NCBI GenBank assembly: GCA_021818465.1
Contig: JAKAEA010000001.1
Span: forward strand, 235,662 to 299,661
Source of the DNA: a bacterium
GTDB taxonomy: Bacteria; Patescibacteriota; Minisyncoccia; Phycocordibacterales; JAKAEA01
Direction: 5' to 3'
Length of the DNA stretch: 64,000 nucleotides
Part shown: positions 10,601 through 23,140 of the stretch, one piece after another
Position numbering within the stretch: the first letter of the stretch is position 1
How the letters are laid out: each line of letters starts with the position of its first letter
The notes under the pieces: model-generated
Seen by the model: the letters and a program-made list of their open reading frames with translations, nothing else
The model's database searches: none
Told to the model about the DNA's origin: nothing
Program-made: the position numbers and the translations under genes

Positions 10601-11569
10601 TTACAACACTGTGCGTAGGAAATGCAGAGCATTGTTGGCCGTAATTTTTTTGACCGTGTCAGGATCTCGAAACTCTTCTGTGAGTTTTCCGCTAATTATC
10701 TCCGCTTTGAGCGGAGAGTTTAGACATACTGGTTCAACTGGAAACCGGATGGGCCACCGAGGATCATCCGGAGCAAACTGCTTCATTCGCTCGAAATGAG
10801 TTCGAGCCTGAGGTTCGGGAATCTGACGATAGATCCCATCAGTTCCCAGGCTGACATTACCCAATCCGCAGATTTCAATCATGTGGCGCACGTGTTGCAA
10901 CCACGGATTAAGTGAATCGTCCGTTTGGGACAGGCCAAACGTCAAATTATAGACGCCGACAATACCACTAAATCGGGCGATGCCTGACAGAATATCGTCA
11001 GGCAAATTACGCGGGTTGTTATAAACACTATGACAACCGCCGTGGCTAGCCATGATGCGTACCCCGGGATTCTTTCGAACGAATTCAATAGTTTCCCGTG
11101 CTGTCTGATGACACGCGTGCGAGAGGTCGGCGACGATTCCGGCAACCGCCAATCCTCGCAAGAATTTTTTTCCTTGCTCAGTGAGCGGTTTGGTAGTCAT
11201 ATATCCGCCGCCGTAGGGATTTTCTTCATTCTTATAGGCGAGCGTGGTAAAGAGAATACCGAGCCGGCGAAGGGTTTTTAGATCTTCGATGTTGGCATCC
11301 ATCGGCGGCAATTGCAAACCAAGCACCACTCCGATTCGATCTCCAAGATTGTCCAAGTCTTCAATGTTTTGAATGACCAGGACATCCTCTTGTTTTTCAA
11401 AGACGCCTACTGTCTTTTGAACTTCGGCGATAATCGCCTCAGCTGTGCTGAATCGGCTGGCTATTGGCGGGCAAGCAGTGTAGCCAACAATCGCTGGTTT
11501 TGGAAATCTTGCGGCGAAAACCGGCAGCTCCATTTGCGAAGCGGGGAATGCGCAAAAGTCAACGAACAT
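10601..11569 (-). CDS. membrane dipeptidase, peptidase family M19 (renal dipeptidase-like)
   Basis: Conserved M19 blocks (HGGCHSVYNNPRNLPDD, DLSHACH). Start chosen at the ATG at 11569, which is preceded by AAGGAGG. The ORF-track start at 11635 is likely too far upstream. A terminator-like hairpin lies downstream on the minus strand (~10550-10590). Confidence 0.75.
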   Translation of the reverse strand: MFVDFCAFPASQMELPVFAARFPKPAIVGYTACPPIASRFSTAEAIIAEVQKTVGVFEKQEDVLVIQNIEDLDNLGDRIGVVLGLQLPPMDANIEDLKTLRRLGILFTTLAYKNEENPYGGGYMTTKPLTEQGKKFLRGLAVAGIVADLSHACHQTARETIEFVRKNPGVRIMASHGGCHSVYNNPRNLPDDILSGIARFSGIVGVYNLTFGLSQTDDSLNPWLQHVRHMIEICGLGNVSLGTDGIYRQIPEPQARTHFERMKQFAPDDPRWPIRFPVEPVCLNSPLKAEIISGKLTEEFRDPDTVKKITANNALHFLRTVL

Positions 11570-11757
11570 ATAAACCTCCTTAAGGTTTGAGAAAATTAGC
11601 GTGAATTGAAGACATTTCAATTCATCTATTGACAATAATACTATATTAATGTATATATGTCAATAGGTTGTCGTGCAATAAGTATAGATAAAAAAGATAG
11701 AACTAATATGTTACGATATGCTATATATTTTATTCTTCTACTAGAAAATACAATTTT

Positions 11758-13350
11758 ATGCCTCAAAAAATATTCAGACCACCAACTCTTGTTGAGTTTT
11801 CTCATAAGGAATCAAAAATCCAAAAAACTATTGCCGATAAACAACTTGATTTTATATGTCAAAAAGATAGCGCTTTTTGGAGTCAAGAGCGCAAGAAACA
11901 ATTATTTTCTCTTTTTAAAACTTCGGTAAAAACTCTACCAGCGTATCAAGAATTTCTTACTCGAGCTGGTGTTGATTATAAGAAAATTACTACGTTCGAA
12001 CAGTTTTCGAAAACTGTTCCGCCAGTTAGTAAGGATAATTATCTCAGAACATATTCTTGGAAACAATTATGCGCCCCCGGCGCACTCACGGGTCAATCGT
12101 TAGTGTTGACATCAACTTCTGGATCGACAGGAAAACCCTTTTATTTTCCTCGTAATGGTATTCTCGATACTCAATCGTCGCTCTATCATCAAATGTATTT
12201 GCGTAATAGCGGTATTGATCCTGATAAATCAACGTTGGTGATTGTGTGTTTTGGTATGGGTGTGTGGATTGGCGGTCTTATCACGTATCAAGCCTTTAAA
12301 TATATTGCTGAGCGAGGTCATCCAATGACTATTATTACGCCCGGGGTCAATAAAAAGGAAATTTACGAAGCAATGAAAAATGTGGCACCGAATTACGATC
12401 AAATAATTCTTTGCGGATACCCGCCGTTTATGAAAGACGTGATTGATGAAGGGAAAGCTAATGGTGTTGAGTGGCGTGATTTTAATATTAAAATGAGTTT
12501 TGCGGCTGAAAGTTTTTCGGAAAAATTTCGCGATTATCTTCTTCGTAAGACTGGTATGAAAAACCCTTATCGTGACACGGCCAATGTGTATGGCAGTGCT
12601 GATCTTGGCACGATGGCTATGGAAACACCGATCGCTATTCTTATTCGCCGCTTGGCTCTTCGAAACAAAAAAATCTATAAAAAACTTTTTGGAGATGCTA
12701 GTCGTCTACCGACTCTTGCCCAATTTATTCCATCATTTGTTAATTTTGAGGCGATTAATCGAAATATTTATGTCAGCGGTGACAATGTGTTGCCATTAGT
12801 TCGTTATCAGATTGGTGACAATGGTGGTGTTCTTGATTTTGCCGAAGTAGAGGAGGTTTTTAGTGAGGCGGGAGTTAACTTGCGCGCTAAGGCGGCGGCT
12901 ATTGGTATTACCGATACCATCGCCGAATTACCATTTGTCTATGTTTATGAACGGACCGATCTCTCTACAAAGCTTTATGGGGCGATTATTTATCCGGAGT
13001 ATGTAAAAGCCGGTCTTCAACATCCGACTCTGGAAAAATATATCACTGGCAAATTTACGATGTTTACGCAATATGATAAAAAACAAAACGAATATTTAGA
13101 AATAAATGTTGAATTAAAGCCCGGTATTGTTGAGTCAGACTGGCTTAATGAGAAACTTTTAAAGTTCGTTGTAGAATTTCTTTTAAATCGAAGTGCTGAG
13201 TATAAATATCTTACTGATATGCTTGGGACGCGCGTAAGTCCTAAAATTGTTTTTTGGCCTTATGAACATGCGACTCATTTCCAGGTTGGTATTAAGCAAA
13301 AGTGGGTAAAGAAGAATGATCAAGAAAAACGTAAAAATTTTAAAAAATAG
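11758..13350 (+). CDS. adenylate-forming enzyme, phenylacetate-CoA ligase (PaaK)/CapK/F390-synthetase-like
   Basis: P-loop-like TSTSGSTGKPFYFP typical of the PaaK-like ANL subfamily. 530 aa. Confidence 0.6.
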   Translation: MPQKIFRPPTLVEFSHKESKIQKTIADKQLDFICQKDSAFWSQERKKQLFSLFKTSVKTLPAYQEFLTRAGVDYKKITTFEQFSKTVPPVSKDNYLRTYSWKQLCAPGALTGQSLVLTSTSGSTGKPFYFPRNGILDTQSSLYHQMYLRNSGIDPDKSTLVIVCFGMGVWIGGLITYQAFKYIAERGHPMTIITPGVNKKEIYEAMKNVAPNYDQIILCGYPPFMKDVIDEGKANGVEWRDFNIKMSFAAESFSEKFRDYLLRKTGMKNPYRDTANVYGSADLGTMAMETPIAILIRRLALRNKKIYKKLFGDASRLPTLAQFIPSFVNFEAINRNIYVSGDNVLPLVRYQIGDNGGVLDFAEVEEVFSEAGVNLRAKAAAIGITDTIAELPFVYVYERTDLSTKLYGAIIYPEYVKAGLQHPTLEKYITGKFTMFTQYDKKQNEYLEINVELKPGIVESDWLNEKLLKFVVEFLLNRSAEYKYLTDMLGTRVSPKIVFWPYEHATHFQVGIKQKWVKKNDQEKRKNFKK

Positions 13351-14008
13351 TATAGTTGTCATAACTGGCGCTGGCCGGGGTTTGGGAAAATCGCTTGTTG
13401 CCGCTTTTACTAATCGTGAAGCACATGTTATTGCTTCTGATATTGATTCACGTCAATACAAAACTGATGTTCGAGATGAGGTTGAAGTAAAAAGATTAGC
13501 TGATGAAATTGTTAAAAAATTTGGTCAAATAGATATTTGGATAAACAATGCCGGTATTTGGTTACCGCGGATGTCAGTTCAAGAATTAGATATGAACCGT
13601 GTTCGGGAGATTTTTAATGTTAATGTCTTCGGTACAATACATGGCACTCGAGCCGCCCTGAAAATTATGGAGCATCAAGGAAAGGGAACTATCGTCAATA
13701 TTGTTTCTACTGCCGCGCTCGTTGGTCGACCGTTCTTTGCAACCTATTCGGCGAGCAAGCATGCTGAAAAAGGTTTTACGGATTCTGTGCGAGAAGAGTT
13801 GAGAGAGCAAGGAAGCAATGTCTCCATTATCGGTATTTATCCCGGTGGTATAAAAACCAACCTTTTTGATGAGAAAAAACCTGATGATTTTGCTAAGTAT
13901 ATGGAGCCAGAATTTGTCGCGGAAGCCATTGTTGCGAACTTAGAAAAGGAAAAGCCGGAACCCGACCTCATTCTTAAACGACCAGGTCAAGATATCAAAT
14001 TTAAATAG
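13316..14008 (+). CDS. short-chain dehydrogenase/reductase (SDR)
   Basis: VVITGAGRGLGKSL (TGxxxGxG), NNAGI, and the YSASK catalytic YxxxK. Confidence 0.8.
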   Translation: MIKKNVKILKNSIVVITGAGRGLGKSLVAAFTNREAHVIASDIDSRQYKTDVRDEVEVKRLADEIVKKFGQIDIWINNAGIWLPRMSVQELDMNRVREIFNVNVFGTIHGTRAALKIMEHQGKGTIVNIVSTAALVGRPFFATYSASKHAEKGFTDSVREELREQGSNVSIIGIYPGGIKTNLFDEKKPDDFAKYMEPEFVAEAIVANLEKEKPEPDLILKRPGQDIKFK

Positions 14009-14093
14009 CTAAAATTTAGTCACACCTTGGACGGTGCATGTACTCTTTTAAAGATGGTAGTATAGGGGTATTAGTAAATTCATTTTTAATACT

Positions 14094-15272
14094 ATGCTTT
14101 CACTTCATGAGATGTTAGAGAAAAAAGATGACGTTGGTGCAAAACCGATATTTTTTGATTTGTCCCAAACTGCCGATCAAAACAAACTCTCCGCACTTTT
14201 TGCTGACAATAAAATCCAACACGTTTCCGATGATTTTGAAGAACAGCACCAAGAATTATTTGCAGTCAGAAATCCGACGATTGTCTATACGGCGGGTTTC
14301 AAAGAAAAATTTAAAAAATATTACGAGGAACTAAAAACTCAAAAGCCTCTTCAGGAACATGGCCATTGGGTCTATTTTCCATGGCTCTCGAAAATTGTTC
14401 ATATTTTAGCTGAAGAAGATTTTTTTATTGTTCGAACTGCACGCAATAAAAATCTCATTAATACCGAGGAGCAAGAAAAATTTCACAATGCCAAAATAGG
14501 TATTGGTGGTTTATCGGTTGGTTCAAGCGTCGCCTACGCTATGACTCTTCAAGGTGGGCCGAAACACGTCAAACTTGCCGATATGGATCGTCTTGCCCTT
14601 TCCAATACGAATCGCATTCTTTCTGGTGTTGATAATCTCGGAATGCTCAAAGTAGAAATGGCCGCTCGTTTCATGTATCAGATTAACCCATATATGGAAA
14701 TAGAACTTTACCCCGACGGCCTGACTCCTGAAAATATTGAAGGGTTTTGCAAAGACTTAGATGTAGTGATTGATGAGCTTGATAATTTATCGGTGAAATT
14801 TTTGATTCGTGAACAAGCCAAAAAATATAAAATACCAGTCGTTATGGCTGCTGATAATGGTGACAATGCTGTAGTAGACGTTGAACGGTATGATTTAGAG
14901 CCGGATATGCCGTACTTTCATGGTCGTATGGGTGATGTCTCATACGACATGCTCACAAAATTAGATAAATTCGGTATCGGCAAAATGATCACCAAGCACG
15001 TTGGTCCGGAAAATGTGACCGAACGAATGCAGCAATCGCTCATGGAGATGGGGAAGACTATTGTCTCTTGGCCCCAACTTGGCGGCGCGGCTTTGATTAA
15101 TGGCGCGGCTGTGGCTTATTGTGTGCGAAAAATTCTGAACAGTCAGCCACTGGAGAAAAATCGCGCCCTTGTGTATTTGGACGAAAAACTTATTCCGACC
15201 TGGAACGAGCCGACCGAAATAAAAAAACGTGCCGCTATCGCCGATGGTTTTCGGAAAATTTTTGGGTTGTAA
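14094..15272 (+). CDS. E1-like ThiF/MoeB-family adenylyltransferase with ~130-aa N-terminal extension
   Basis: Rossmann motif GIGGLSVGS and the E1 signature DMDRLALSNTNR (DxDxxxxSNLNR). There are no CxxC zinc motifs. The N-terminal extension is unassigned. Confidence 0.7.
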   Translation: MLSLHEMLEKKDDVGAKPIFFDLSQTADQNKLSALFADNKIQHVSDDFEEQHQELFAVRNPTIVYTAGFKEKFKKYYEELKTQKPLQEHGHWVYFPWLSKIVHILAEEDFFIVRTARNKNLINTEEQEKFHNAKIGIGGLSVGSSVAYAMTLQGGPKHVKLADMDRLALSNTNRILSGVDNLGMLKVEMAARFMYQINPYMEIELYPDGLTPENIEGFCKDLDVVIDELDNLSVKFLIREQAKKYKIPVVMAADNGDNAVVDVERYDLEPDMPYFHGRMGDVSYDMLTKLDKFGIGKMITKHVGPENVTERMQQSLMEMGKTIVSWPQLGGAALINGAAVAYCVRKILNSQPLEKNRALVYLDEKLIPTWNEPTEIKKRAAIADGFRKIFGL

Positions 15273-15288
15273 TTATTTTAGTTTAATT

Positions 15289-16092
15289 CTATTTATTATT
15301 TTTTTGAGAATTTTTACCCAGTCTCTTAGCTTCCTCCCAGGCGAGATCAAAAACACTCTTCATAACGTCTGCCATTTCTTTACTTTCAACACTTATCGCT
15401 ATACCCCCGTGGTCGTGAGAAGCATAGGCAATTTTGTTATCGTAAATGACTAAATCGGCGGATATTTTGTATTTGTCTGGTGGTATGAGTATTGGTTTGT
15501 CAAGATTTTTAGTGTTATATCTAAGTAAATTTCGATTAAACTCATTATCGGGATGGATACCATGCATTTTGATATTTAATTGGTATCTTTTTTGTAAATA
15601 TTGCGGCATATAGTCACCCATGATTTCTCTAAGATTTTCTGTGGCGGAAATCACCCGCATCAATTTTTCTTTTGTTTTAAGAGTCTCTTCAAAAGCGCTA
15701 ATTAAACCTTCTTTTCCTTCAAATACTCGAACTTTCGGTTTTTGTTTAGTATCTTTATGTAAGGCTTTTAGTTCTGGTAATATTTTCTCAATTTTATTTA
15801 AAATATTTTCTTGCTTATCCACCATATTTTCGGCGGTATGAAGTAAAATATCAGGAGAAGTGGCGATATACTGTCGAACATCCTTATCGTCTGAGATACT
15901 TACTAATCCTTTTTTTATAAGAGATTCAAGTACGACATAAATTGTGCTTCTATTGATTTCGGTATGTCGAGAGATTTCTTGCACGGGAGCAATTTCAAGT
16001 TCAAGCAACGCTACGTAAATACGTGCCTCTTTTTCATTAAGACCAAATTCTATAAGAGTTTTAGTAAGCATAGTGTTAATGGGTGTTAACAA
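15289..16092 (-). CDS. TrmB-family transcriptional regulator
   Basis: N-terminal wHTH (LIEFGLNEKEARIYVALLELEIAPVQEISRHTEINRSTIYVVLESLIKKGLV). Divergently oriented from the small peptide gene. Confidence 0.7.
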   Translation of the reverse strand: MLTPINTMLTKTLIEFGLNEKEARIYVALLELEIAPVQEISRHTEINRSTIYVVLESLIKKGLVSISDDKDVRQYIATSPDILLHTAENMVDKQENILNKIEKILPELKALHKDTKQKPKVRVFEGKEGLISAFEETLKTKEKLMRVISATENLREIMGDYMPQYLQKRYQLNIKMHGIHPDNEFNRNLLRYNTKNLDKPILIPPDKYKISADLVIYDNKIAYASHDHGGIAISVESKEMADVMKSVFDLAWEEAKRLGKNSQKNNK

Positions 16093-16143
16093 TATTGTTA
16101 TAATTTACGTTTCGAAACTATTTTTGTTGTTATAGTATAACAA
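16088..16143. promoter_or_regulatory. two palindromic operator-like sites sharing a TTGTTATA half-site in the divergent intergenic region
   Basis: AACAATATTGTT at 16088-16099 (extending to TTGTTATAA) and TTGTTATAgTATAACAA at 16127-16143 are perfect inverted repeats. They lie between the TrmB regulator and the peptide gene. Confidence 0.4.
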
Positions 16144-16345
16144 CACAATAGAAATAATACAAGCTACTAGCGAATTAGTGCGGTGATAATTTTTTTTAGC
16201 AGTAGTTGTTTATAGGGAAAAAGTATTGTCTCGTGATTGTTATATGTTTACAACATTTTTGAAGGGTTTATTTTTTAGTTAGATAAAAAGTTGGAGTGCG
16301 TGATTTGTATATCAACTCATTGAAAAAAGAAAGGAGGTGATTATC

Positions 16346-16450
16346 ATGGCAAACCAACCAACAGGCCCCCATGGGGGTTCGTCGGGTGGCACTAGTACCG
16401 GCAACAATGGTTCGGGCGGTGGCTCTCACGGTGGTCCTCGAGGAGGATAA
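16346..16450 (+). CDS. 34-aa Gly/Ser-rich small peptide (MANQPTGPHGGSSGGTSTGNNGSGGGSHGGPRGG)
   Basis: Not in the ORF track (<60 aa). A perfect RBS (AAAGGAGGTG) lies 7 nt upstream of the ATG, and a rho-independent terminator follows immediately. No Cys. Ser/Thr sit in a Gly-rich context. Confidence 0.55.
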   Translation: MANQPTGPHGGSSGGTSTGNNGSGGGSHGGPRGG

Positions 16451-16471
16451 TTTCTCGTCGGACTATAGTAG

Positions 16472-16505
16472 AATAGGGTGAGAGTTTTCTCACCCTATTT
16501 CTAAT
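16472..16505 (+). terminator. rho-independent terminator after the small peptide gene
   Basis: AGGGTGAGA-gttt-TCTCACCCT, a 9-bp perfect stem followed by a T-rich tract. Confidence 0.7.
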
Positions 16506-16519
16506 TTATATAAAAATAT

Positions 16520-16789
16520 ATGTCTAATAAAAATAATATAAAATATCCTGTTGTTTTTATTATCTACAGAGATATCGTTCTCTGGGAGAGTCAGGTTAAG
16601 ATTAAAAGTGGTTTTCCTGTACATATTTTTCACGCAGTTGGTTTTTTAATTGAAGATAATACTGATAATTATGTTATTGCCCGAGAGATTGTGACAAATC
16701 AAAATGACGATCTCCGAGGGGCAATGACTATTCCCAAAGAAACAATCTTGCATTTTGAAAAGATCAAAGAAAATAAAATAATTTCTTAA
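16520..16789 (+). CDS. hypothetical protein (89 aa)
   Basis: ORF inside the AT-rich island with no recognisable motifs. Confidence 0.35.
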   Translation: MSNKNNIKYPVVFIIYRDIVLWESQVKIKSGFPVHIFHAVGFLIEDNTDNYVIAREIVTNQNDDLRGAMTIPKETILHFEKIKENKIIS

Positions 16790-16811
16790 AGATTAGCATA
16801 TTGTTATTTTT

Positions 16812-17309
16812 ATGAAATTAAAATCTACTCTCACCAATCGTTCAGGCAAAATATTGTCTGTTATTTATTCGGAAAAAGATCCTCTCATTGGCTTAGAAGG
16901 GAAAATTTTGCAAGGCGTTCACGCTTTTTGTTTTTGGGGAAATCACATGGTATTGGTGCATCATCCTAAAAGTGGGTGGATGCCACCGGGTGGTGGCATT
17001 GAACGTAATGAAAATTATATAGAAGCGACGTTACGAGAAGTTAAAGAGGAAACAAATATGAAAGTCACGTATCTAAAAACAATCGGTTTTCAGGATACAT
17101 ATGAGCCGGGGAAAGTGGTCCGACAGGTGCGGAATTTTTGTTTAGTTGAACCGTGTGGAGATTTTACATCAGATCCCGATGGTGAAATTATGGAAATTAA
17201 ACTTATTAGACCGGAAGACTATAAACAATATTTTGATTGGGGCGAAATTGGCGATAGAATTATGACGCAAGCGTTGAAATATAAGAGTAAAATAGCCGGG
17301 ATTTTATAA
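16812..17309 (+). CDS. NUDIX hydrolase
   Basis: Nudix box GGGIERNENYIEATLREVKEETN (Gx5Ex7REUxEExGU). Confidence 0.8.
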   Translation: MKLKSTLTNRSGKILSVIYSEKDPLIGLEGKILQGVHAFCFWGNHMVLVHHPKSGWMPPGGGIERNENYIEATLREVKEETNMKVTYLKTIGFQDTYEPGKVVRQVRNFCLVEPCGDFTSDPDGEIMEIKLIRPEDYKQYFDWGEIGDRIMTQALKYKSKIAGIL

Positions 17310-17381
17310 ACTTCTTATATTATTTGGTCTATCTAAGCTTATGAGATATAATCTTAATATCGAAAGTTATTGTGTTTTTCT

Positions 17382-18416
17382 ATGAAAGAAAACTATAAAG
17401 CTTGGCAAATAGATCTGAACTCTTTCAAAGAGCTTAAAACTGAAGTTGAGAGATTAAAATTTTTCTTAAAATTTGCCGTATTAGCTCCTTCGAGTCATAA
17501 TTCACAACCTTGGTTATTTTCAGTTTCTGAAAATAGTATTCAAGTTTATCGAGCAAAGTTTCGTTCTCTTCCTATCGCTGATGTAAATAATCGTCAACTT
17601 TTTTTAAGTATTGGTTGTGCTATTGAACATATTGTTATTGCTGCTCAGTATTATGGATATAGCACTAATGTAGAATATAAGGACGATTTAATTAACCCCA
17701 ATCTTGCTGCTATTATCACGTTTAGAAAAGAAGAAAAAAAAATTCAAACAATCGAAAGTTTACGTTATATCCAAGCTATTCTAAAAAGAAAGACAAATCG
17801 TGGTAAATACAAAAAAGAAAAAATTTTAGAAAATTTATTGGAAAAAATAGAAAAGTTAAAAACTCCCAATCTTAATATATATGTGATTAGTGATACTGAA
17901 AAAATATCTAGACTTGCCGATATTGCCGTTCAAGCTTCTATTGAATCAATGGTTGACGATAATTTTCGTTTAGAACTCTCTCATCATCTTAAACATAATT
18001 TAACAAAATCTAAAATTGGCATGCCTGGTTTTAGTTTGGGTTTGCCGACGCTGGTTTCATTTTTATTACCACATTTAATGAAACAATTTAATTTGGAACG
18101 AGTAGCTCAAAAACAAAACGAGAAATTATTTAAAAAACATACTCCATATATAGTTATATTAACGACTAACGGTGATTCACGAAAAGATTGGCTAGAAGCT
18201 GGCCGAGTATTTGAACAGATTACCCTTACTCTAACGCACGATAATATTAGCGTGTCTCCTTGGGGTGCGCCAATTCAAATAGGAGAATTTTACAGAAATA
18301 TTCAGAAAATTCTTCACACTAGTTTTCGGCCACAGATGTTTTTTCGAGTAGGGTATGCTCAAAAAAAAGCAAGATTTAGTCCTAGATTAATAGTTGAAGA
18401 TGTTCTGGATAAATAG
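17382..18416 (+). CDS. nitroreductase-family protein, Acg/tandem-nitroreductase-like
   Basis: APSSHNSQPW motif and a ~340-aa length consistent with the double nitroreductase fold. The ATG at 17382 is preferred over the TTG at 17370. Confidence 0.6.
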   Translation: MKENYKAWQIDLNSFKELKTEVERLKFFLKFAVLAPSSHNSQPWLFSVSENSIQVYRAKFRSLPIADVNNRQLFLSIGCAIEHIVIAAQYYGYSTNVEYKDDLINPNLAAIITFRKEEKKIQTIESLRYIQAILKRKTNRGKYKKEKILENLLEKIEKLKTPNLNIYVISDTEKISRLADIAVQASIESMVDDNFRLELSHHLKHNLTKSKIGMPGFSLGLPTLVSFLLPHLMKQFNLERVAQKQNEKLFKKHTPYIVILTTNGDSRKDWLEAGRVFEQITLTLTHDNISVSPWGAPIQIGEFYRNIQKILHTSFRPQMFFRVGYAQKKARFSPRLIVEDVLDK

Positions 18417-18526
18417 TTTTAATTCTAGTTTAGTAAGACCATGCTAAAGTCTAGAGCTTAAAGAATGGAGGATGATTTCGCATAAATAAGTTATAAGGTG
18501 TATGCTATATACAATATAGCAAAAAT

Positions 18527-20131
18527 ATGACTTTTGTATTCAATATAGATATTCTATCGGTTGGAATTGCGATTGCGGCTAATATAATTCTTGGTTTCGT
18601 AATTTTTGTTTCAAACAAAAGAAATATTACTACAACTCTATTTTTTTTACAGACAATTATATTATCTTTATGGAGCGTTGCTAATTATTTAACATATCAG
18701 ATTACTGATTTACAAATATCTTTATGGATGGAAAGAATGGTTATATTTTTAGCTGTTCCTAATTCGATTGTTTTTCTTTTACTTATGTATCATTTTCCTG
18801 AAAAACGCTGGTTGCTTTCTAGGAAAATAACACTTATTGGATTCGTTGTTGTTGTAAGTACAATGTTTTTAACATTAACTCCTTATATTTTTTCGGGCGT
18901 GCGATTAGTTGCTGGTATTCCAACTCCACAACCAGTAGTTCAGCCAGGGATTCTTTTATTTGCTGTAGTTTCGGTGCTCTCAATTCCGGTTGGAATTTAT
19001 TTCTTAATTGTTAAGTATGTAAAAAGTACTCAATTAAATAAATCACGAATTGGTTATTTGTTATTGGGAGCAATAATTATGTTTCTTTTTATTGTAATAT
19101 TAGATTTTGTATTTCCGGTCTTCATAAACGATACTCAATTTATTCCTTTTAGTGCAGTTTTTACCTTTCCTTTTGTAGGATTTACTTTTTATTCAATCTA
19201 TAGGCATCAACTTTTTAATATACGAGCAGCGTTAGTGGCTGGTCTAACATTTATTCTTTCTGTTTCAGCTTTCATTGAAATAATTTTTTCAACAACAGTG
19301 TCGGTGATAATTTTGCGTAGTGCGGTCTTTATCCTTGTGCTGGCTATCAGTATTATGATGAATCGTTTTGTGCAGACAATTGCTGAACAGCGTGAAAAAT
19401 TGGTAGTTGCCAATGAGGGTCAACAACAATTCATCCACTACCTCAATCACGAGTCAAAGGGGTACTTGACTGATGACAACGTAGTGCTCGCGGCGGTGCG
19501 GGATCAGGATTTCGGGCCGACCTCGCCGGAACTGCAGAAGATGGCCACCACCGTGTTGCGCAAGAACGCGCGGGCGGTGGATGATATTGACGAAATGATT
19601 CTCGGCGCCGACCTCGGCAGCGGGGTGGTGCGCTACACTATGGAGCCGTTTGATCTGGCTGCCGCGACACGCACCTTTGTGGACGAGTATCGACCGGACG
19701 CTGAGGAGAAACAGCAGAAGCTGGAGTTTCGTTTGGAACCGGCCGACGGCGACTTTACGGTGGTGGGCGACAAGCGACGCCTCATCCGCCATGCCCTGAA
19801 AAATTATCTCAAGAATGCCATCGTCTACACGCCCGTCGGCGGAACGATTAGTGTGACGCTCTCGCGGGTGCCGGCGGCGAAGGCGGGCGAGCCGGCGCGC
19901 GTGCGGCTCGCCGTGCACGACTCGGGTGTCGGTATTGCGCCGGAGGACAAGCCACGACTCTTTACCGAGGGTGGCAAGGGTCTCCATTCTACCGACGTCA
20001 ATCCCAACTCCACTGGCCGCGGCCTCTTCATCGTCAAGCAAATTTTGGACGCCCACCACGGCCGCGTTTTTGCCGACTCCGAGGGCGCTGGCAAAGGCGC
20101 GACGTTTGGGTTTGAGGTGCCAGTAGGGTAG
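18527..20131 (+). CDS. membrane sensor histidine kinase (polytopic N-terminal sensor, C-terminal HATPase)
   Basis: About 7 TM helices, then an H-box-like IHYLNHESKGYL and an HATPase_c domain (HDSGVGIAPEDKPRLF, GRGLFIVKQILDAHHGRV, GKGATFGFEVP). No response regulator is adjacent. The 3' ~700 nt are strikingly GC-rich. Confidence 0.75.
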   Translation: MTFVFNIDILSVGIAIAANIILGFVIFVSNKRNITTTLFFLQTIILSLWSVANYLTYQITDLQISLWMERMVIFLAVPNSIVFLLLMYHFPEKRWLLSRKITLIGFVVVVSTMFLTLTPYIFSGVRLVAGIPTPQPVVQPGILLFAVVSVLSIPVGIYFLIVKYVKSTQLNKSRIGYLLLGAIIMFLFIVILDFVFPVFINDTQFIPFSAVFTFPFVGFTFYSIYRHQLFNIRAALVAGLTFILSVSAFIEIIFSTTVSVIILRSAVFILVLAISIMMNRFVQTIAEQREKLVVANEGQQQFIHYLNHESKGYLTDDNVVLAAVRDQDFGPTSPELQKMATTVLRKNARAVDDIDEMILGADLGSGVVRYTMEPFDLAAATRTFVDEYRPDAEEKQQKLEFRLEPADGDFTVVGDKRRLIRHALKNYLKNAIVYTPVGGTISVTLSRVPAAKAGEPARVRLAVHDSGVGIAPEDKPRLFTEGGKGLHSTDVNPNSTGRGLFIVKQILDAHHGRVFADSEGAGKGATFGFEVPVG

Positions 20132-21824: not shown

Positions 21825-22556
21825 ATGAATACACGCGTATTTTTTGTAGCAATTGCTCTACTTTGTGCCGCATCATTCGGTGGAATAATACCGGCTATTG
21901 CATTTGCTCAATCTTATCCAACATACTCATCTAGCTCTAGTGGTACGTATACCTCTGTGCTTGGTACCAACGGTATTGTGTATACCTATAATGCGAATAC
22001 CGGTACATATATGTCATCTCCTACTGGTGTTGCCTATAATCCGATAACGCAAATGTATACCTATAATGGTGTTACTTATTCCTACAATCAAAATACGCGT
22101 TTGTATACGGCGCACGGTGTATTTTTTACGTTTAACGCCTCCACAAATACGTTTACGCCGATTACAAACAGTGGTGTTACGACAACTACAAATGCTTCAA
22201 ACAGTACAATCGTTTTCTACACCAAAACTGGTACGCCAATATATGCAACACAAGGTGCATCTATCCCGGCTGGCCTTTATTACACCGCACGTGGTCGGCC
22301 CCTCTATTACTACGGTAATGGTTACTACTATAATTCCACTACACAAACGTATGGCAGTATTAACAATCCGAGTTTTATTAGTACAACGTATCCATTAACA
22401 ACTACGGTTGCTACACCTGGCGCACCCAATACTGGTGAAGGAGGCAATGCGCCGCTCAACTGGACATTACTTATACTCGCGGCCATTATTACTCTTTCTG
22501 GATCCACATATTTTGTGCACCGAGCGGTGGTAGCTCAGCGTACTATTTCTAAGTGA
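21825..22556 (+). CDS. surface protein with Tyr/Thr/Asn-rich repeats and a C-terminal sortase sorting signal
   Basis: Signal peptide and YTYNxNT-type repeats. The C-terminus is APNTGEGG, then a hydrophobic segment, then the basic tail HRAVVAQR. The sortase gene overlaps it by 4 nt. Confidence 0.6.
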   Translation: MNTRVFFVAIALLCAASFGGIIPAIAFAQSYPTYSSSSSGTYTSVLGTNGIVYTYNANTGTYMSSPTGVAYNPITQMYTYNGVTYSYNQNTRLYTAHGVFFTFNASTNTFTPITNSGVTTTTNASNSTIVFYTKTGTPIYATQGASIPAGLYYTARGRPLYYYGNGYYYNSTTQTYGSINNPSFISTTYPLTTTVATPGAPNTGEGGNAPLNWTLLILAAIITLSGSTYFVHRAVVAQRTISK

Positions 22557-23140
22557 TGAAAAAGAAAATTATTCCTTTTTTGGTTGGGATCATAACTATG
22601 ACTGCGGCGGTAGGGGGAGTGTCCGTTTTGATCGGTGCGACACTCTATGCTCCAGATGGTCGATTGCCCGAAGTGCATGCGGCTGTTGGCGCAAATAAAA
22701 ATCCCGCGCGTCTTCTCATTCCCAGTTTAGGAATTAATGCTGCGGTGCAGCGAGTTGGTTTAAATAGTCAGGGTAATATAGGTGCACCAGATAATTTTAC
22801 TGATGTGGCGTGGTTTGTGAGGAGTGCTGCGCCGGGAACGGTGGGCGGCGTATCAGTTATTGATGGTCACGTTGATAACGGTTTAGGATTGGCCGGTGTG
22901 TTTATTCATCTGAATACAATTCGTCCTGGTGCAGCGGTGAATGTGGTGACGAAGGGTGGAAAAACAGTGTATTTTAAAGTGACGAATGTTACAGCCTACA
23001 ATTACGAGCGTGTGCCAATGGAAAAACTTTTGCAAACTTCAGGCTCCTCAACAATTCGCCTCATTACCTGCGACGGCACCTGGGTTTCTGATCAGAAAAC
23101 ATACAATAAGCGTTTGGTGGTAACGGCCGTGGAGACGTGA
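22553..23140 (+). CDS. srt: sortase (class E/F-like transpeptidase)
   Basis: N-terminal TM. Catalytic His (VIDGHVD) and the TLxTC-type Cys motif (IRLITCDG). Confidence 0.8.
   Translation: MMKKKIIPFLVGIITMTAAVGGVSVLIGATLYAPDGRLPEVHAAVGANKNPARLLIPSLGINAAVQRVGLNSQGNIGAPDNFTDVAWFVRSAAPGTVGGVSVIDGHVDNGLGLAGVFIHLNTIRPGAAVNVVTKGGKTVYFKVTNVTAYNYERVPMEKLLQTSGSSTIRLITCDGTWVSDQKTYNKRLVVTAVET

What the first reader, a model, noticed from the sequence alone, without database searches (positions are those of the whole stretch)
11640..19430. AT-rich ~7.8-kb accessory island carrying a peptide-centred enzyme set: candidate undescribed modification system
Composition drops visibly to ~33% GC between two ~45-50% GC housekeeping flanks. 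Inside the island sit a PaaK-like adenylate-forming enzyme, an SDR, an E1-like ThiF adenylyltransferase with an unassigned ~130-aa N-terminal extension, a divergently transcribed TrmB-type regulator, a 34-aa Gly/Ser-rich peptide gene with a textbook RBS and private terminator, an 89-aa unknown, a NUDIX hydrolase, an Acg-type nitroreductase-like protein and an orphan sensor kinase. Two adenylating enzymes, a flavin-type oxidoreductase-like protein, a reductase and a dedicated small peptide under a local regulator fit a peptide/small-molecule activation-and-modification cassette, RiPP-like or peptide-nucleotide-like. Yet it matches no canonical architecture: there is no YcaO, no radical SAM, no lanthipeptide enzyme, no transporter and no immunity gene. 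It appears acquired, though no integrase is present.
Basis: partly seen in the sequence, partly recalled or inferred. Interest (0 to 1): 0.8.

Follow-up and report, generated by a model that had tools for sequence, protein, structure and literature searches.

The report
Split oxazolone-synthetase-like cassette in Parcubacteria
The "island" is a gene cassette conserved across many ultra-small Parcubacteria (an acid-activating ligase, a ring-closing enzyme, a flavin oxidase and a membrane sensor kinase) whose two central enzymes resemble the recently described bacterial oxazolone-making enzymes, and in this genome a regulator, a small glycine-rich peptide gene and mobile filler were inserted into it, so it is not a peptide-modification system.

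Summary
About 33% GC holds only for about 15.3-19.4 kb; 11.7-15.3 kb is 38-41%. The right boundary falls inside the kinase gene.

The core is not an acquired, peptide-centred island. In 82 related Parcubacteria loci the packed order PaaK-like ligase > ThiF-like > nitroreductase-type flavin oxidase (FDO) > 7TM histidine kinase recurs. The ThiF-like protein is the N-half, and the FDO the C-half, of the Rv1355c/TrzS family. TrzS is an experimentally characterised fusion enzyme that cyclises and desaturates N-acyl amino acids to oxazolones.

The known N-acyltransferase partner is absent. A PaaK-like adenylating ligase takes its place, and its subtype co-varies with an upstream amino-acid-converting enzyme.

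SDR, the TrmB regulator, the 34-aa peptide, the 89-aa ORF and NUDIX are lineage-specific insertions. The closest relative (87% ThiF identity) lacks TrmB, the peptide, the 89-aa ORF and NUDIX.

The peptide is probably real. It sits behind a TrmB-linked palindromic operator. Related peptides are under purifying selection and pair with C39-like peptidases elsewhere. It is not co-conserved with the enzymes.

Verdict: a new variant of a known kind, of moderate interest.

The parts
10601..11635 (-). M19 (membrane dipeptidase / dehydropeptidase family) gene, divergent from the ligase. It is a flank and only a possible accessory.
   Evidence: Pfam Peptidase_M19 at E 4e-32. GC is 48%, like the flanks. 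An M19 homolog also lies beside the cassette in L013 and L074.
11758..13350 (+). PaaK-like adenylate-forming (ANL-type) ligase, the first gene of the conserved cassette.
   Evidence: A profile of 40 homologs hits phenylacetate-CoA ligase structures (2y4o, E 7e-15). The invariant residues are S121, G122, Y278, G279, E289, D354, G356, R399 and K513; I read these as ANL core motifs from my own knowledge of the superfamily. It is adjacent to ThiF in 58/71 loci.
13316..14008 (+). Classical SDR oxidoreductase, a lineage-specific insertion between ligase and ThiF.
   Evidence: Pfam adh_short at E 3e-45. Only one other locus has a close SDR by the cassette (L003, 50% identity, upstream of the ligase).
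14094..15272 (+). ThiF/E1-like ATP-dependent cyclase homolog, equal to the N-terminal half of the Rv1355c/TrzS family. It includes a family-specific N-terminal domain (14094-14468).
15289..16071 (-). TrmB-family winged-helix regulator with a C-terminal domain, divergent from the peptide gene.
   Evidence: Pfam TrmB at E 2e-16. Close homologs abut cassette genes at different positions in L013, L022, L025, L078 and L084, and in 6 of 14 metagenome contigs of at least 4 kb found with TrmB as the query.
16125..16145 (.). Perfect palindromic operator TGTTGT-N9-ACAACA, upstream of TrmB.
   Evidence: This is the only perfect site in the 64-kb window. In 1.39 Mb of related loci, perfect sites occur almost only where the TrmB homolog is present.
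16235..16255 (.). Second, imperfect operator (2 mismatches), overlapping the -35-like TTTACA hexamer upstream of the peptide gene.
16347..16451 (+). 34-aa Gly/Ser-rich peptide gene (MANQPTGPHGGSSGGTSTGNNGSGGGSHGGPRGG), monocistronic.
   Evidence: It has a ribosome-binding site and its own terminator, and the gene caller called it. Analogous operator/RBS/terminator-flanked Gly-rich ORFs occur in L084, L022 and L101. The L084 and L101 blocks differ by 14 synonymous and 1 non-synonymous change in 18 codons.
16471..16500 (+). Intrinsic terminator of the peptide transcript.
   Evidence: A 13-pair stem followed by a T-rich tail. The RNA fold z-score is -3.7.
16520..16789 (+). 89-aa ORF of mobile or phage-associated origin. 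It is not part of the cassette.
   Evidence: Only 6 homologs were found. They sit in a phage-like region, next to an IS1595 transposase, or in a cassette-less locus. It matches phrog_25889 at E 6.5e-5.
16812..17309 (+). NUDIX hydrolase, a lineage-specific passenger.
   Evidence: Pfam NUDIX at E 5e-12. Homologs appear in 3 related loci (L003, L008, L027) at variable positions.
17370..18416 (+). [quoted passage not shown] It is the cassette's oxidase, displaced by the insertion.
   Evidence: NF047509 at 226.8 bits (cutoff 199). It also matches the C-half of the Rv1355c family at 82.6 bits. It is 53% identical to the FDO directly after ThiF in L084. It matches MsAcg 2ymv. It aligns to residues 381-628 of the Rhodococcus fusion.
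18527..20131 (+). 7TM-sensor histidine kinase, the fourth conserved cassette gene. Its composition is mosaic, with a junction at about 19,390-19,450.
   Evidence: Pfam HisKA_7TM and HATPase_c. It lies within 2.6 kb of ThiF in 43/66 loci. GC3 is ~0.2 for codons 1-285 and ~0.75 after codon 300, and the two halves have different best relatives. The same protein is found on 4 contigs.

Best explanation
The region is a composite of two things.

(1) A four-gene cassette that is widespread in Parcubacteria: PaaK-like ligase > ThiF-like enzyme > flavin-dependent oxidase (FDO) > 7TM histidine kinase. The ThiF-like and FDO proteins are the two halves, encoded separately, of the oxazolone synthetases TrzS, OxzB and TyzB/TyzC.

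By homology with those characterised enzymes (inferred, not shown here):
- The ThiF-like protein adenylates the free carboxylate of an N-acylated amino acid. The amide oxygen then closes a 5(4H)-oxazolone ring.
- The FDO desaturates the C-alpha/C-beta bond.

The usual acyl-CoA-dependent N-acyltransferase is missing. I infer that the PaaK-like ligase activates a free carboxylic acid with ATP. It then supplies the N-acyl amino acid, either directly as an amide-forming ligase or through a thioester. The acid is probably derived from an amino acid, because in other genomes the gene just upstream is an ELFV amino-acid dehydrogenase, an aminotransferase or a tyrosine ammonia-lyase.

The co-conserved sensor kinase suggests that the product or its precursor is tied to signalling. 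This is speculative.

(2) Lineage-specific insertions. One is the SDR. The other is a low-GC block running from TrmB to the first half of the kinase. It carries a TrmB-family repressor with its palindromic operator, a monocistronic Gly-rich peptide gene, a phage-associated 89-aa ORF and a NUDIX gene. It appears to have arrived by recombination with a lower-GC relative. The peptide belongs to the TrmB module, not to the enzyme chemistry.
For: Homology to oxazolone synthetases:
- ThiF matches the Rv1355c family at E 3.7e-102 over model positions 5-349, and the FDO matches positions 371-653.
- BLASTP against a Rhodococcus Rv1355c-family fusion gives E 2e-63 for ThiF and 2e-11 for the FDO. The two hits are collinear and the nucleotide-binding motifs are kept.
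- The function of TrzS, OxzB and TyzBC is established experimentally (PMC12856293; PMC10404671; bioRxiv 10.1101/2020.06.11.147165).

Synteny across 82 loci:
- The ligase is adjacent in 58/71 loci and within 7 kb in 12 more.
- The FDO is adjacent in 46/73 loci and nearby in 18 more.
- The kinase is within 2.6 kb in 43/66 loci and elsewhere in the locus in 13 more.

The ligase:
- It is a PaaK-clade ANL enzyme with its invariant core positions intact.
- Its subtype co-varies with the upstream enzyme. TAL-linked ligases are 29-34% identical to the window's in 8 of 9 loci, while ThiF stays at 59-78% in all loci.

The insertions:
- The closest relatives have ThiF directly followed by the FDO (L084), or carry a different insert at the same junction (L083).
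- The composition shift and the mosaic kinase are shown.
- The operator is specific to TrmB-bearing loci.
- The 89-aa ORF sits in phage or IS contexts elsewhere.
Against: - No chemistry was tested, so the substrate and product are unknown.
- No OxzA/TyzA/TrzA-type acyltransferase is present. The ligase's role in making the N-acyl amino acid is an inference.
- The window's FDO scores higher with the Acg family (226.8 bits) than with the Rv1355c C-half (82.6 bits). No Acg-type FDO has a known reaction.
- The ThiF-like protein is unusually conserved (mean column identity 74%) compared with its partners. That is atypical for a secondary-metabolite enzyme and could point to a macromolecular substrate.
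- The characterised FDOs use O2, and many Parcubacteria live without oxygen.
- In this genome ThiF and the FDO are 2.1 kb apart with a terminator between them.
Confidence: 0.6

Rival explanations
1. The 34-aa Gly-rich peptide is the substrate: the ThiF-like and PaaK-like enzymes activate it and the FDO and SDR modify it, giving a RiPP-like or peptide-nucleotide product under TrmB control.
For: - ThiF-like enzymes such as MccB and PaaA do act on peptide C-termini (review PMC12596934). Any peptide C-terminus is formally an N-acyl amino acid.
- The peptide gene looks real: it has an RBS and a terminator, and related peptides are under purifying selection.
- The TrmB regulator that controls it is repeatedly linked to the cassette.
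Against: - No Gly-rich ORF occurs in about 79 of 82 cassette loci, and the 87%-identical relative has none.
- The C-termini differ (GG, GR, KK, GS), and a C-terminal Gly has no C-beta to desaturate.
- In L022 and L101 the peptide pairs with C39-like peptidase genes instead.
- The N-terminal domain of ThiF has no RRE or peptide-clamp fold, and the small-molecule enzyme TrzS family shares it.
- The peptide is monocistronic.
Confidence: 0.07
2. The ThiF-like protein has a housekeeping role on a macromolecule. It could be a TcdA-like tRNA t6A cyclodehydratase, or a MoeB/ThiF-type activator of a sulfur-carrier or ubiquitin-like protein. The neighbouring genes would then be coincidental or auxiliary.
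For: - The closest solved structure by sequence is TcdA (E 1e-12).
- Some sources name homologs as tRNA threonylcarbamoyladenosine dehydratase or as molybdopterin/thiamine adenylyltransferase.
- Sequence conservation is very high across genomes.
Against: - Scores for the TcdA, MoeB and ThiF models are far below their cut-offs (55.6 vs 304, 68.9 vs 449, 72.2 vs 275). The Rv1355c family scores 342.8 bits on half the model.
- TcdA, MoeB and ThiF lack the N-terminal domain.
- No MoaD/ThiS-like gene is nearby.
- The tight, conserved operon with the FDO and the ligase is unexplained by this model.
Confidence: 0.08
3. There is no functional system. The region is a patchwork of horizontally acquired, unrelated genes that happen to be neighbours.
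For: - Composition is heterogeneous and the kinase is mosaic.
- The 89-aa ORF and NUDIX have phage-type relatives.
- The ThiF|FDO junction holds different inserts in different genomes.
Against: - The four-gene order is conserved across dozens of species-level genomes whose flanks differ.
- ThiF and the FDO are fused into one protein in other phyla.
Confidence: 0.03

Closest known systems
TrzAS of Mycobacterium tuberculosis, M. smegmatis and Rhodococcus jostii (Rv1356c/Rv1355c): N-acyl tryptazolone synthesis (PMC12856293)
   Same: TrzS is a ThiF-like cyclase plus a nitroreductase-superfamily FDO. The window's ThiF-like protein is its N-half, including the N-terminal extension and the nucleotide-binding motifs, and the window's FDO aligns to its C-half. 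In both cases the cluster lies next to signalling genes: GGDEF/EAL in actinobacteria (PMC12856293) and a kinase here.
   Different: Here the two domains are separate genes. The FDO is the Acg-family type. There is no TrzA-type acyl-CoA N-acyltransferase; a PaaK-like ATP-dependent ligase is the conserved upstream gene. A 7TM histidine kinase is part of the operon. The host is Patescibacteria.
OxzAB of Pseudoalteromonas rubra (oxazolone synthetase; bioRxiv 10.1101/2020.06.11.147165) and TyzACB of M. tuberculosis (PMC10404671)
   Same: The logic is the same: an N-acyl amino acid is cyclised by a ThiF-type enzyme using ATP and desaturated by an FDO. TyzB and TyzC are also separate, adjacent genes.
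   Different: OxzA and TyzA are FeeM/AHL-synthase-like acyltransferases, which are absent here. The substrate amino acid and acyl group are unknown here.
TcdA (tRNA t6A cyclodehydratase)
   Same: It is the closest solved structure by sequence (E 1e-12). The chemistry is related: ATP-dependent cyclisation of an N-carbamoyl amino acid.
   Different: TcdA has about 270 aa, no N-terminal domain and no FDO partner. The model score is far below the cut-off.
Peptide-modifying E1-like systems: MccB (microcin C7), PaaA (pantocin A), and the McbB/SagC E1-like plus McbC/SagB dehydrogenase of TOMM clusters
   Same: They combine an E1-like fold with, in TOMMs, a nitroreductase-family dehydrogenase. A Gly-rich small peptide lies nearby in this genome.
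Acg, Rv3131 and Rv3127 (DosR-regulon FDOs of M. tuberculosis, function unknown)
   Same: The window's FDO passes the Acg-family model (226.8 bits, cutoff 199) and matches MsAcg 2ymv.
   Different: Here the Acg-type FDO occupies the slot after a TrzS-type ThiF that Rv1355c-type FDOs fill in most Parcubacteria.

Membership tests
Oxazolone synthetase (OxzB / TrzS / TyzB+TyzC) | ThiF-like cyclase domain of the Rv1355c/TrzS clade | tested here: met
   NF005901 at E 3.7e-102 and 342.8 bits on model positions 5-349 of 722. 34% identity at E 2e-63 to a Rhodococcus Rv1355c-family protein.
Oxazolone synthetase (OxzB / TrzS / TyzB+TyzC) | Intact E1-type nucleotide-binding and catalytic motifs (Gly loop, DxD...SNxNR, Lys, DxxD Asp) | tested here: met
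   GIGGLSVGS, LADMDRLALSNTNR, KVE and IDELDN are invariant in 21 homologs and align with TcdA and the Rhodococcus fusion. The exact equivalent of TrzS D217 was not mapped.
Oxazolone synthetase (OxzB / TrzS / TyzB+TyzC) | FDO of the nitroreductase superfamily fused to, or adjacent to, the ThiF gene | tested here: met
   The FDO is adjacent in 46/73 related loci and in the 78% relative L084. In the window it is 2.1 kb downstream, behind an insertion, and aligns to the fusion's C-half.
Oxazolone synthetase (OxzB / TrzS / TyzB+TyzC) | FDO of the same subtype as in the characterised enzymes (Rv1355c C-half type) | tested here: not met
   The window's FDO scores 226.8 bits with the Acg family and 82.6 bits with Rv1355c. 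Most other Parcubacteria cassettes score the other way round.
Oxazolone synthetase (OxzB / TrzS / TyzB+TyzC) | Adjacent OxzA/TyzA/TrzA-type N-acyl amino acid synthase | tested here: not met
   No such family recurs in the 83 loci or is annotated in the region. The conserved upstream gene is a PaaK-like ligase.
Oxazolone synthetase (OxzB / TrzS / TyzB+TyzC) | The product is an N-acyl oxazolone | not testable with these tools
   This needs heterologous expression or in vitro assays.
RiPP / peptide-modifying E1-like systems (MccB, PaaA, TOMM) | Precursor peptide gene co-conserved with the enzymes | tested here: not met
   Gly-rich small ORFs occur in only 3 cassette-centred loci (the window, L084, L022), and their positions vary.
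RiPP / peptide-modifying E1-like systems (MccB, PaaA, TOMM) | Peptide-binding N-terminal domain (RRE or peptide clamp) | tested here: not met
RiPP / peptide-modifying E1-like systems (MccB, PaaA, TOMM) | YcaO cyclodehydratase partner (TOMM) | tested here: not met
   No YcaO appears in the Pfam or NCBIfam scans of the region.
TcdA / MoeB / ThiF housekeeping adenylyltransferases | The score reaches the family's curated cut-off | tested here: not met
   TcdA 55.6 vs 304; MoeB 68.9 vs 449; ThiF 72.2 vs 275.
Genomic island | Compositional deviation from the flanks | tested here: met
   This holds only for about 15.3-19.4 kb (30-34% GC, tetranucleotide outlier).
Genomic island | Integrase, tRNA target or flanking direct repeats | tested here: not met
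   No tRNA lies within 26 kb and only chance-length repeats are present. No recombinase appears among the ORFs.
Anti-phage defence systems (PADLOC) | Proteins match a defence-system model set | tested here: not met
   Only weak generic E1-domain hits (31 bits or less) and wHTH hits were found.

The most novel reading that the evidence does not exclude
The cassette makes a small, labile oxazolone-type molecule from an ATP-activated, amino-acid-derived acid. The 7TM histidine kinase encoded in the same operon would be its receptor. This would be a self-contained signal-synthase and sensor pair, conserved in ultra-small, host-dependent Parcubacteria. It would give oxazolones, whose physiological role is still unresolved, a signalling function. 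It would also give an Acg-type FDO its first reaction.
Probability: 0.15. Interest if true: 0.8.

Novelty: new variant of a known kind. Interest (0 to 1): 0.5.

Why it matters
Oxazolone synthetases were discovered in 2020-21 and extended to M. tuberculosis in 2023-25. Their authors call the physiological role of the products a major unresolved question (PMC12856293).

This analysis finds a split homolog in genome-reduced Parcubacteria, where biosynthetic capacity is scarce. The acyltransferase is replaced by an ATP-dependent ligase, and a 7TM sensor kinase is kept in the same operon. Three experiments follow directly:
- Reconstitute the ligase, ThiF and FDO together.
- Test the kinase's response to the product.
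- Test whether Acg-type FDOs are desaturases.

I found no paper linking oxazolones to Patescibacteria.

The analysis also removes a tempting but wrong RiPP annotation. It defines a TrmB-type operator (TGTTGT-N9-ACAACA) and a small family of Gly-rich peptides that deserve separate study.

Tried and rejected
- Rfam scan of 9-22 kb at E <= 1: no hits, so the peptide region is not a known RNA element.
- Leader-peptide or attenuator reading of the 34-aa ORF: the fold shows a strong terminator starting about 20 nt after the stop codon, with no evident competing antiterminator. I consider it unlikely but not excluded.
- phmmer of the ligase against the PDB found nothing. Only the 40-sequence profile reached PaaK.
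- RRE or peptide-clamp hypothesis for the ThiF N-terminal domain: no support.
- A Foldseek search against AFDB was not available.
- PADLOC gave no defence-system match.
- No further copies of cassette genes, and no TAL, ELFV dehydrogenase, aminotransferase, C39-like peptidase or response-regulator genes, occur elsewhere in the 64-kb window.
- No tRNA or flanking repeats mark the low-GC block.

Full report
**Source and observation.**
The window comes from contig DAIEME010000001.1 of MAG GCA_027341405.1, a 540-kb contig. The relatives found are Parcubacteria/Paceibacteria of the Patescibacteria.

One addition: the 'PaaK-like' assignment needed a 40-sequence profile, which hits phenylacetate-CoA ligase structures at E 7e-15. 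The single sequence hits neither Pfam nor the PDB.

The 34-aa ORF (16347-16451) has an AAAGGAGG ribosome-binding site. A 13-bp-stem terminator follows it.

**Composition.**
The window averages 43.3% GC.
- The flanks are 45-48% GC.
- Ligase, SDR and ThiF are 38-41%.
- TrmB, the 89-aa ORF, the FDO and the first ~285 codons of the kinase are 30-34% (GC3 about 0.2), and NUDIX within the same stretch is 38%.
- The 3-kb GC minimum of the whole window is at 16401.
- The only tetranucleotide outliers are the 4-kb windows that together span 14001-20000.

The right boundary lies inside the kinase gene. GC3 rises from ~0.2 to ~0.75 around codon 290-310, which is about 19,390-19,450. The kinase core (59% GC) is the most GC-rich stretch of the window.
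- The N-terminal half is closest to L084 (48% identity).
- The C-terminal half is closest to other, mostly higher-GC genomes (39-42% identity).
- The same chimeric protein is found on four contigs.

No integrase, nearby tRNA or flanking repeats exist. The left flank (2-Hacid_dh, DoxD) is syntenic with five other genomes. The '~33% GC, 7.8-kb island' is therefore really a low-GC replacement of about 4 kb with one junction inside a gene.

**What the enzymes are.**
NCBIfam places the ThiF-like protein on positions 5-349 of the 722-residue 'Rv1355c family' model (E 3.7e-102). It places the nitroreductase-like protein on positions 371-653 of the same model, and above the cut-off of the Acg family (226.8 vs 199 bits).

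A Rhodococcus plasmid protein annotated as Rv1355c family aligns collinearly with both:
- residues 11-334 with the window's ThiF (34% identity, E 2e-63);
- residues 381-628 with the window's FDO (22% identity, E 2e-11).

The E1-type motifs are conserved.

[quoted passage not shown] It converts N-acyl-tryptophan into an N-acyl oxazolone by ATP-dependent cyclisation and O2-dependent desaturation (PMC12856293). OxzB of P. rubra and TyzB/TyzC of M. tuberculosis do the same with N-acyl-tyrosine (bioRxiv 10.1101/2020.06.11.147165; PMC10404671).

The 'unassigned' N-terminal extension belongs to this family. It models confidently (pLDDT 88) but matches no PDB fold, and in particular no RRE or peptide clamp.

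**Conservation.**
A scan of one genome per species, using a ThiF alignment as query, returned 80 loci, and 206 stretches were confirmed as relatives. With two close relatives fetched separately, this gives 82 non-self loci.

| Gene | Adjacent or close to ThiF | Also found further off |
|---|---|---|
| PaaK-like ligase | directly upstream in 58/71 | within 7 kb in 12 more |
| FDO | directly downstream in 46/73 | nearby in 18 more |
| HisKA_7TM kinase | within 2.6 kb in 43/66 | elsewhere in the locus in 13 more |

Flanking genes differ between genomes.

Genes that recur in only some loci:
- receiver-only response regulators (20 loci);
- an unknown 310-aa protein between the FDO and the kinase (15 loci);
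- immediately upstream of the ligase, an ELFV amino-acid dehydrogenase (21 loci), a tyrosine ammonia-lyase (9 loci; E 3e-186 to FlxA) or a class I/II aminotransferase (7 loci).

The ligase subtype tracks this upstream gene. TAL-linked ligases are only 29-34% identical to the window's in 8 of 9 loci, and the ninth (L054) carries two ligase copies. ThiF stays at 59-78% identity in all loci. This argues that the ligase acts on the product of the upstream enzyme.

No OxzA/TyzA-type acyltransferase recurs.

Two FDO types occupy the slot after ThiF. The majority type resembles the Rv1355c C-half. A minority type, which includes the window and L084, belongs to the Acg family.

**What is not conserved.**
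SDR, TrmB, the peptide, the 89-aa ORF and NUDIX are absent from almost all cassettes.
- The closest relative (87% ThiF identity) has a different 5-kb insert between ThiF and the FDO. It has no TrmB or peptide.
- The next relative (78%) has ligase > ThiF > FDO > kinase contiguous, with TrmB and a Gly-rich ORF after the kinase. Its FDO is 53% identical to the window's. The window's FDO is therefore the cassette's own oxidase, displaced by an insertion.
- The 89-aa ORF has six homologs. They sit in a phage-like region, beside an IS1595 transposase, or in a cassette-less locus. It matches a PHROG family.

**The TrmB and peptide module.**
The TrmB-peptide intergenic region holds a perfect palindrome, TGTTGT-N9-ACAACA (16125-16145). 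A second, imperfect copy overlaps the peptide promoter's -35-like hexamer.

In 1.39 Mb of related loci, perfect sites occur almost only where the TrmB homolog is present. They lie upstream of TrmB itself and of varied targets: Gly-rich ORFs, a radical SAM/SPASM gene, the FDO-kinase pair in L013, and hydrolases.

A TrmB-centred metagenome scan found cassette genes beside close TrmB homologs in 6 of 14 contigs of at least 4 kb. Several of these carry a divergent ThiF (34-39% identity) with an Acg-type FDO.

Gly-rich ORFs flanked by an operator, an RBS and a terminator occur in the window, L084, L022 and L101.
- The L084 and L101 peptides share an 18-codon block with 14 synonymous changes and 1 non-synonymous change. 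These ORFs are therefore translated and under purifying selection.
- In L022 and L101 they are followed by C39-like peptidase genes.
- Their C-termini are not conserved.

The peptide is thus a real but separate, TrmB-associated element. Its function is unknown.

**Mechanism.**
Shown here: homology, synteny, motif conservation, the operator and the insertions.

Inferred from the characterised homologs: the ThiF-like protein adenylates the carboxylate of an N-acylated amino acid and the oxazolone ring closes. The FDO then desaturates C-alpha/C-beta.

Inferred from context: the PaaK-like ligase activates an amino-acid-derived free acid. It provides the N-acyl amino acid in place of an acyl-CoA acyltransferase.

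Speculative:
- The operon's 7TM kinase senses the product. Actinobacterial trzAS loci and the Rhodococcus locus likewise lie next to c-di-GMP genes (PMC12856293).
- The M19 (dehydropeptidase-family) neighbour acts on hydrolysed products.

**Rivals.**
I considered three rivals: a peptide-substrate model, a housekeeping TcdA/MoeB-like role, and mere juxtaposition. Each is weakened by the tests above. The unusually high conservation of ThiF keeps a macromolecular substrate possible.

**Novelty.**
The enzymology is of a known kind. Three things appear undescribed in the papers I could search:
- the Patescibacteria distribution;
- the ligase-for-acyltransferase replacement;
- the operon-encoded sensor kinase, together with the Acg-type FDO in this slot.

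I rate it a new variant of a known kind, interest 0.5.

Noticed in passing
window 18527-20131 (junction about 19,390-19,450): The histidine kinase gene is a compositional chimera. GC3 is ~0.2 in the 7TM sensor half and ~0.75 in the kinase core, and the two halves have different best relatives. Both halves are outliers for this 43%-GC window. The same protein is on 4 contigs.
   Followed up: partly
window 16125-16145 and 16235-16255; L013, L022, L025, L084, L087, L164: The palindrome TGTTGT-N9-ACAACA behaves as the operator of a Parcubacteria TrmB subfamily. It lies upstream of the regulator itself and of varied targets: small peptide genes, radical SAM/SPASM, FDO-kinase and hydrolases.
   Followed up: partly
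L022 6048-6820; L101 2476-4010; L084 14933-15028: Short Gly-rich peptide genes (24-31 aa) have their own terminators. In L022 and L101 they are followed by C39-like cysteine peptidase genes without a transporter. The L084 and L101 peptides differ almost only at synonymous sites.
   Followed up: partly
82 related loci (e.g. L011, L022, L004): The gene upstream of the PaaK-like ligase alternates between an ELFV amino-acid dehydrogenase, a tyrosine ammonia-lyase and an aminotransferase. The ligase subtype co-varies with it, while ThiF does not.
   Followed up: yes
L004, L025, L062, L079 versus the window and L084: Two different FDO types, Rv1355c-C-half-like and Acg-family, occupy the same position after ThiF in different Parcubacteria. 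This links an Acg-type protein to a defined enzymatic context.
   Followed up: partly
window 14094-15272 and homologs: The ThiF-like protein is 59-87% identical across species-level genomes (mean column identity 74%). Its operon partners are only 20-70% identical. This is an unexplained asymmetry.
   Followed up: no
window 10601-11635; L013 8864-9850; L074: An M19 (dehydropeptidase-family) dipeptidase gene lies next to or inside the cassette in three genomes. It could act on N-acyl-dehydroamino acids released by oxazolone hydrolysis, which is speculation.
   Followed up: no
window 16520-16789; L167, L170: The 89-aa ORF belongs to a tiny family also found in a phage-like region (HNH, RusA, ParB) and beside an IS1595 transposase. 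It matches phrog_25889.
   Followed up: yes
L083 1311-6390; L013, L023, L027, L044, L051, L052, L073, L078: The ThiF|FDO junction holds different inserted gene blocks in many genomes. It looks like an insertion hot spot within an otherwise tight operon.
   Followed up: partly
window 21825-23140: A Thr/Ser-rich 243-aa protein with a C-terminal hydrophobic tail is immediately followed by a sortase gene, so it is probably a sortase-substrate pair. An ECF-type sigma factor and SecA lie further downstream.
   Followed up: no
15 loci, e.g. L005 5363-6286 and L008 12250-13167: An unknown protein of about 310 aa with no Pfam hit is inserted between the FDO and the kinase in 15 cassettes.
   Followed up: no
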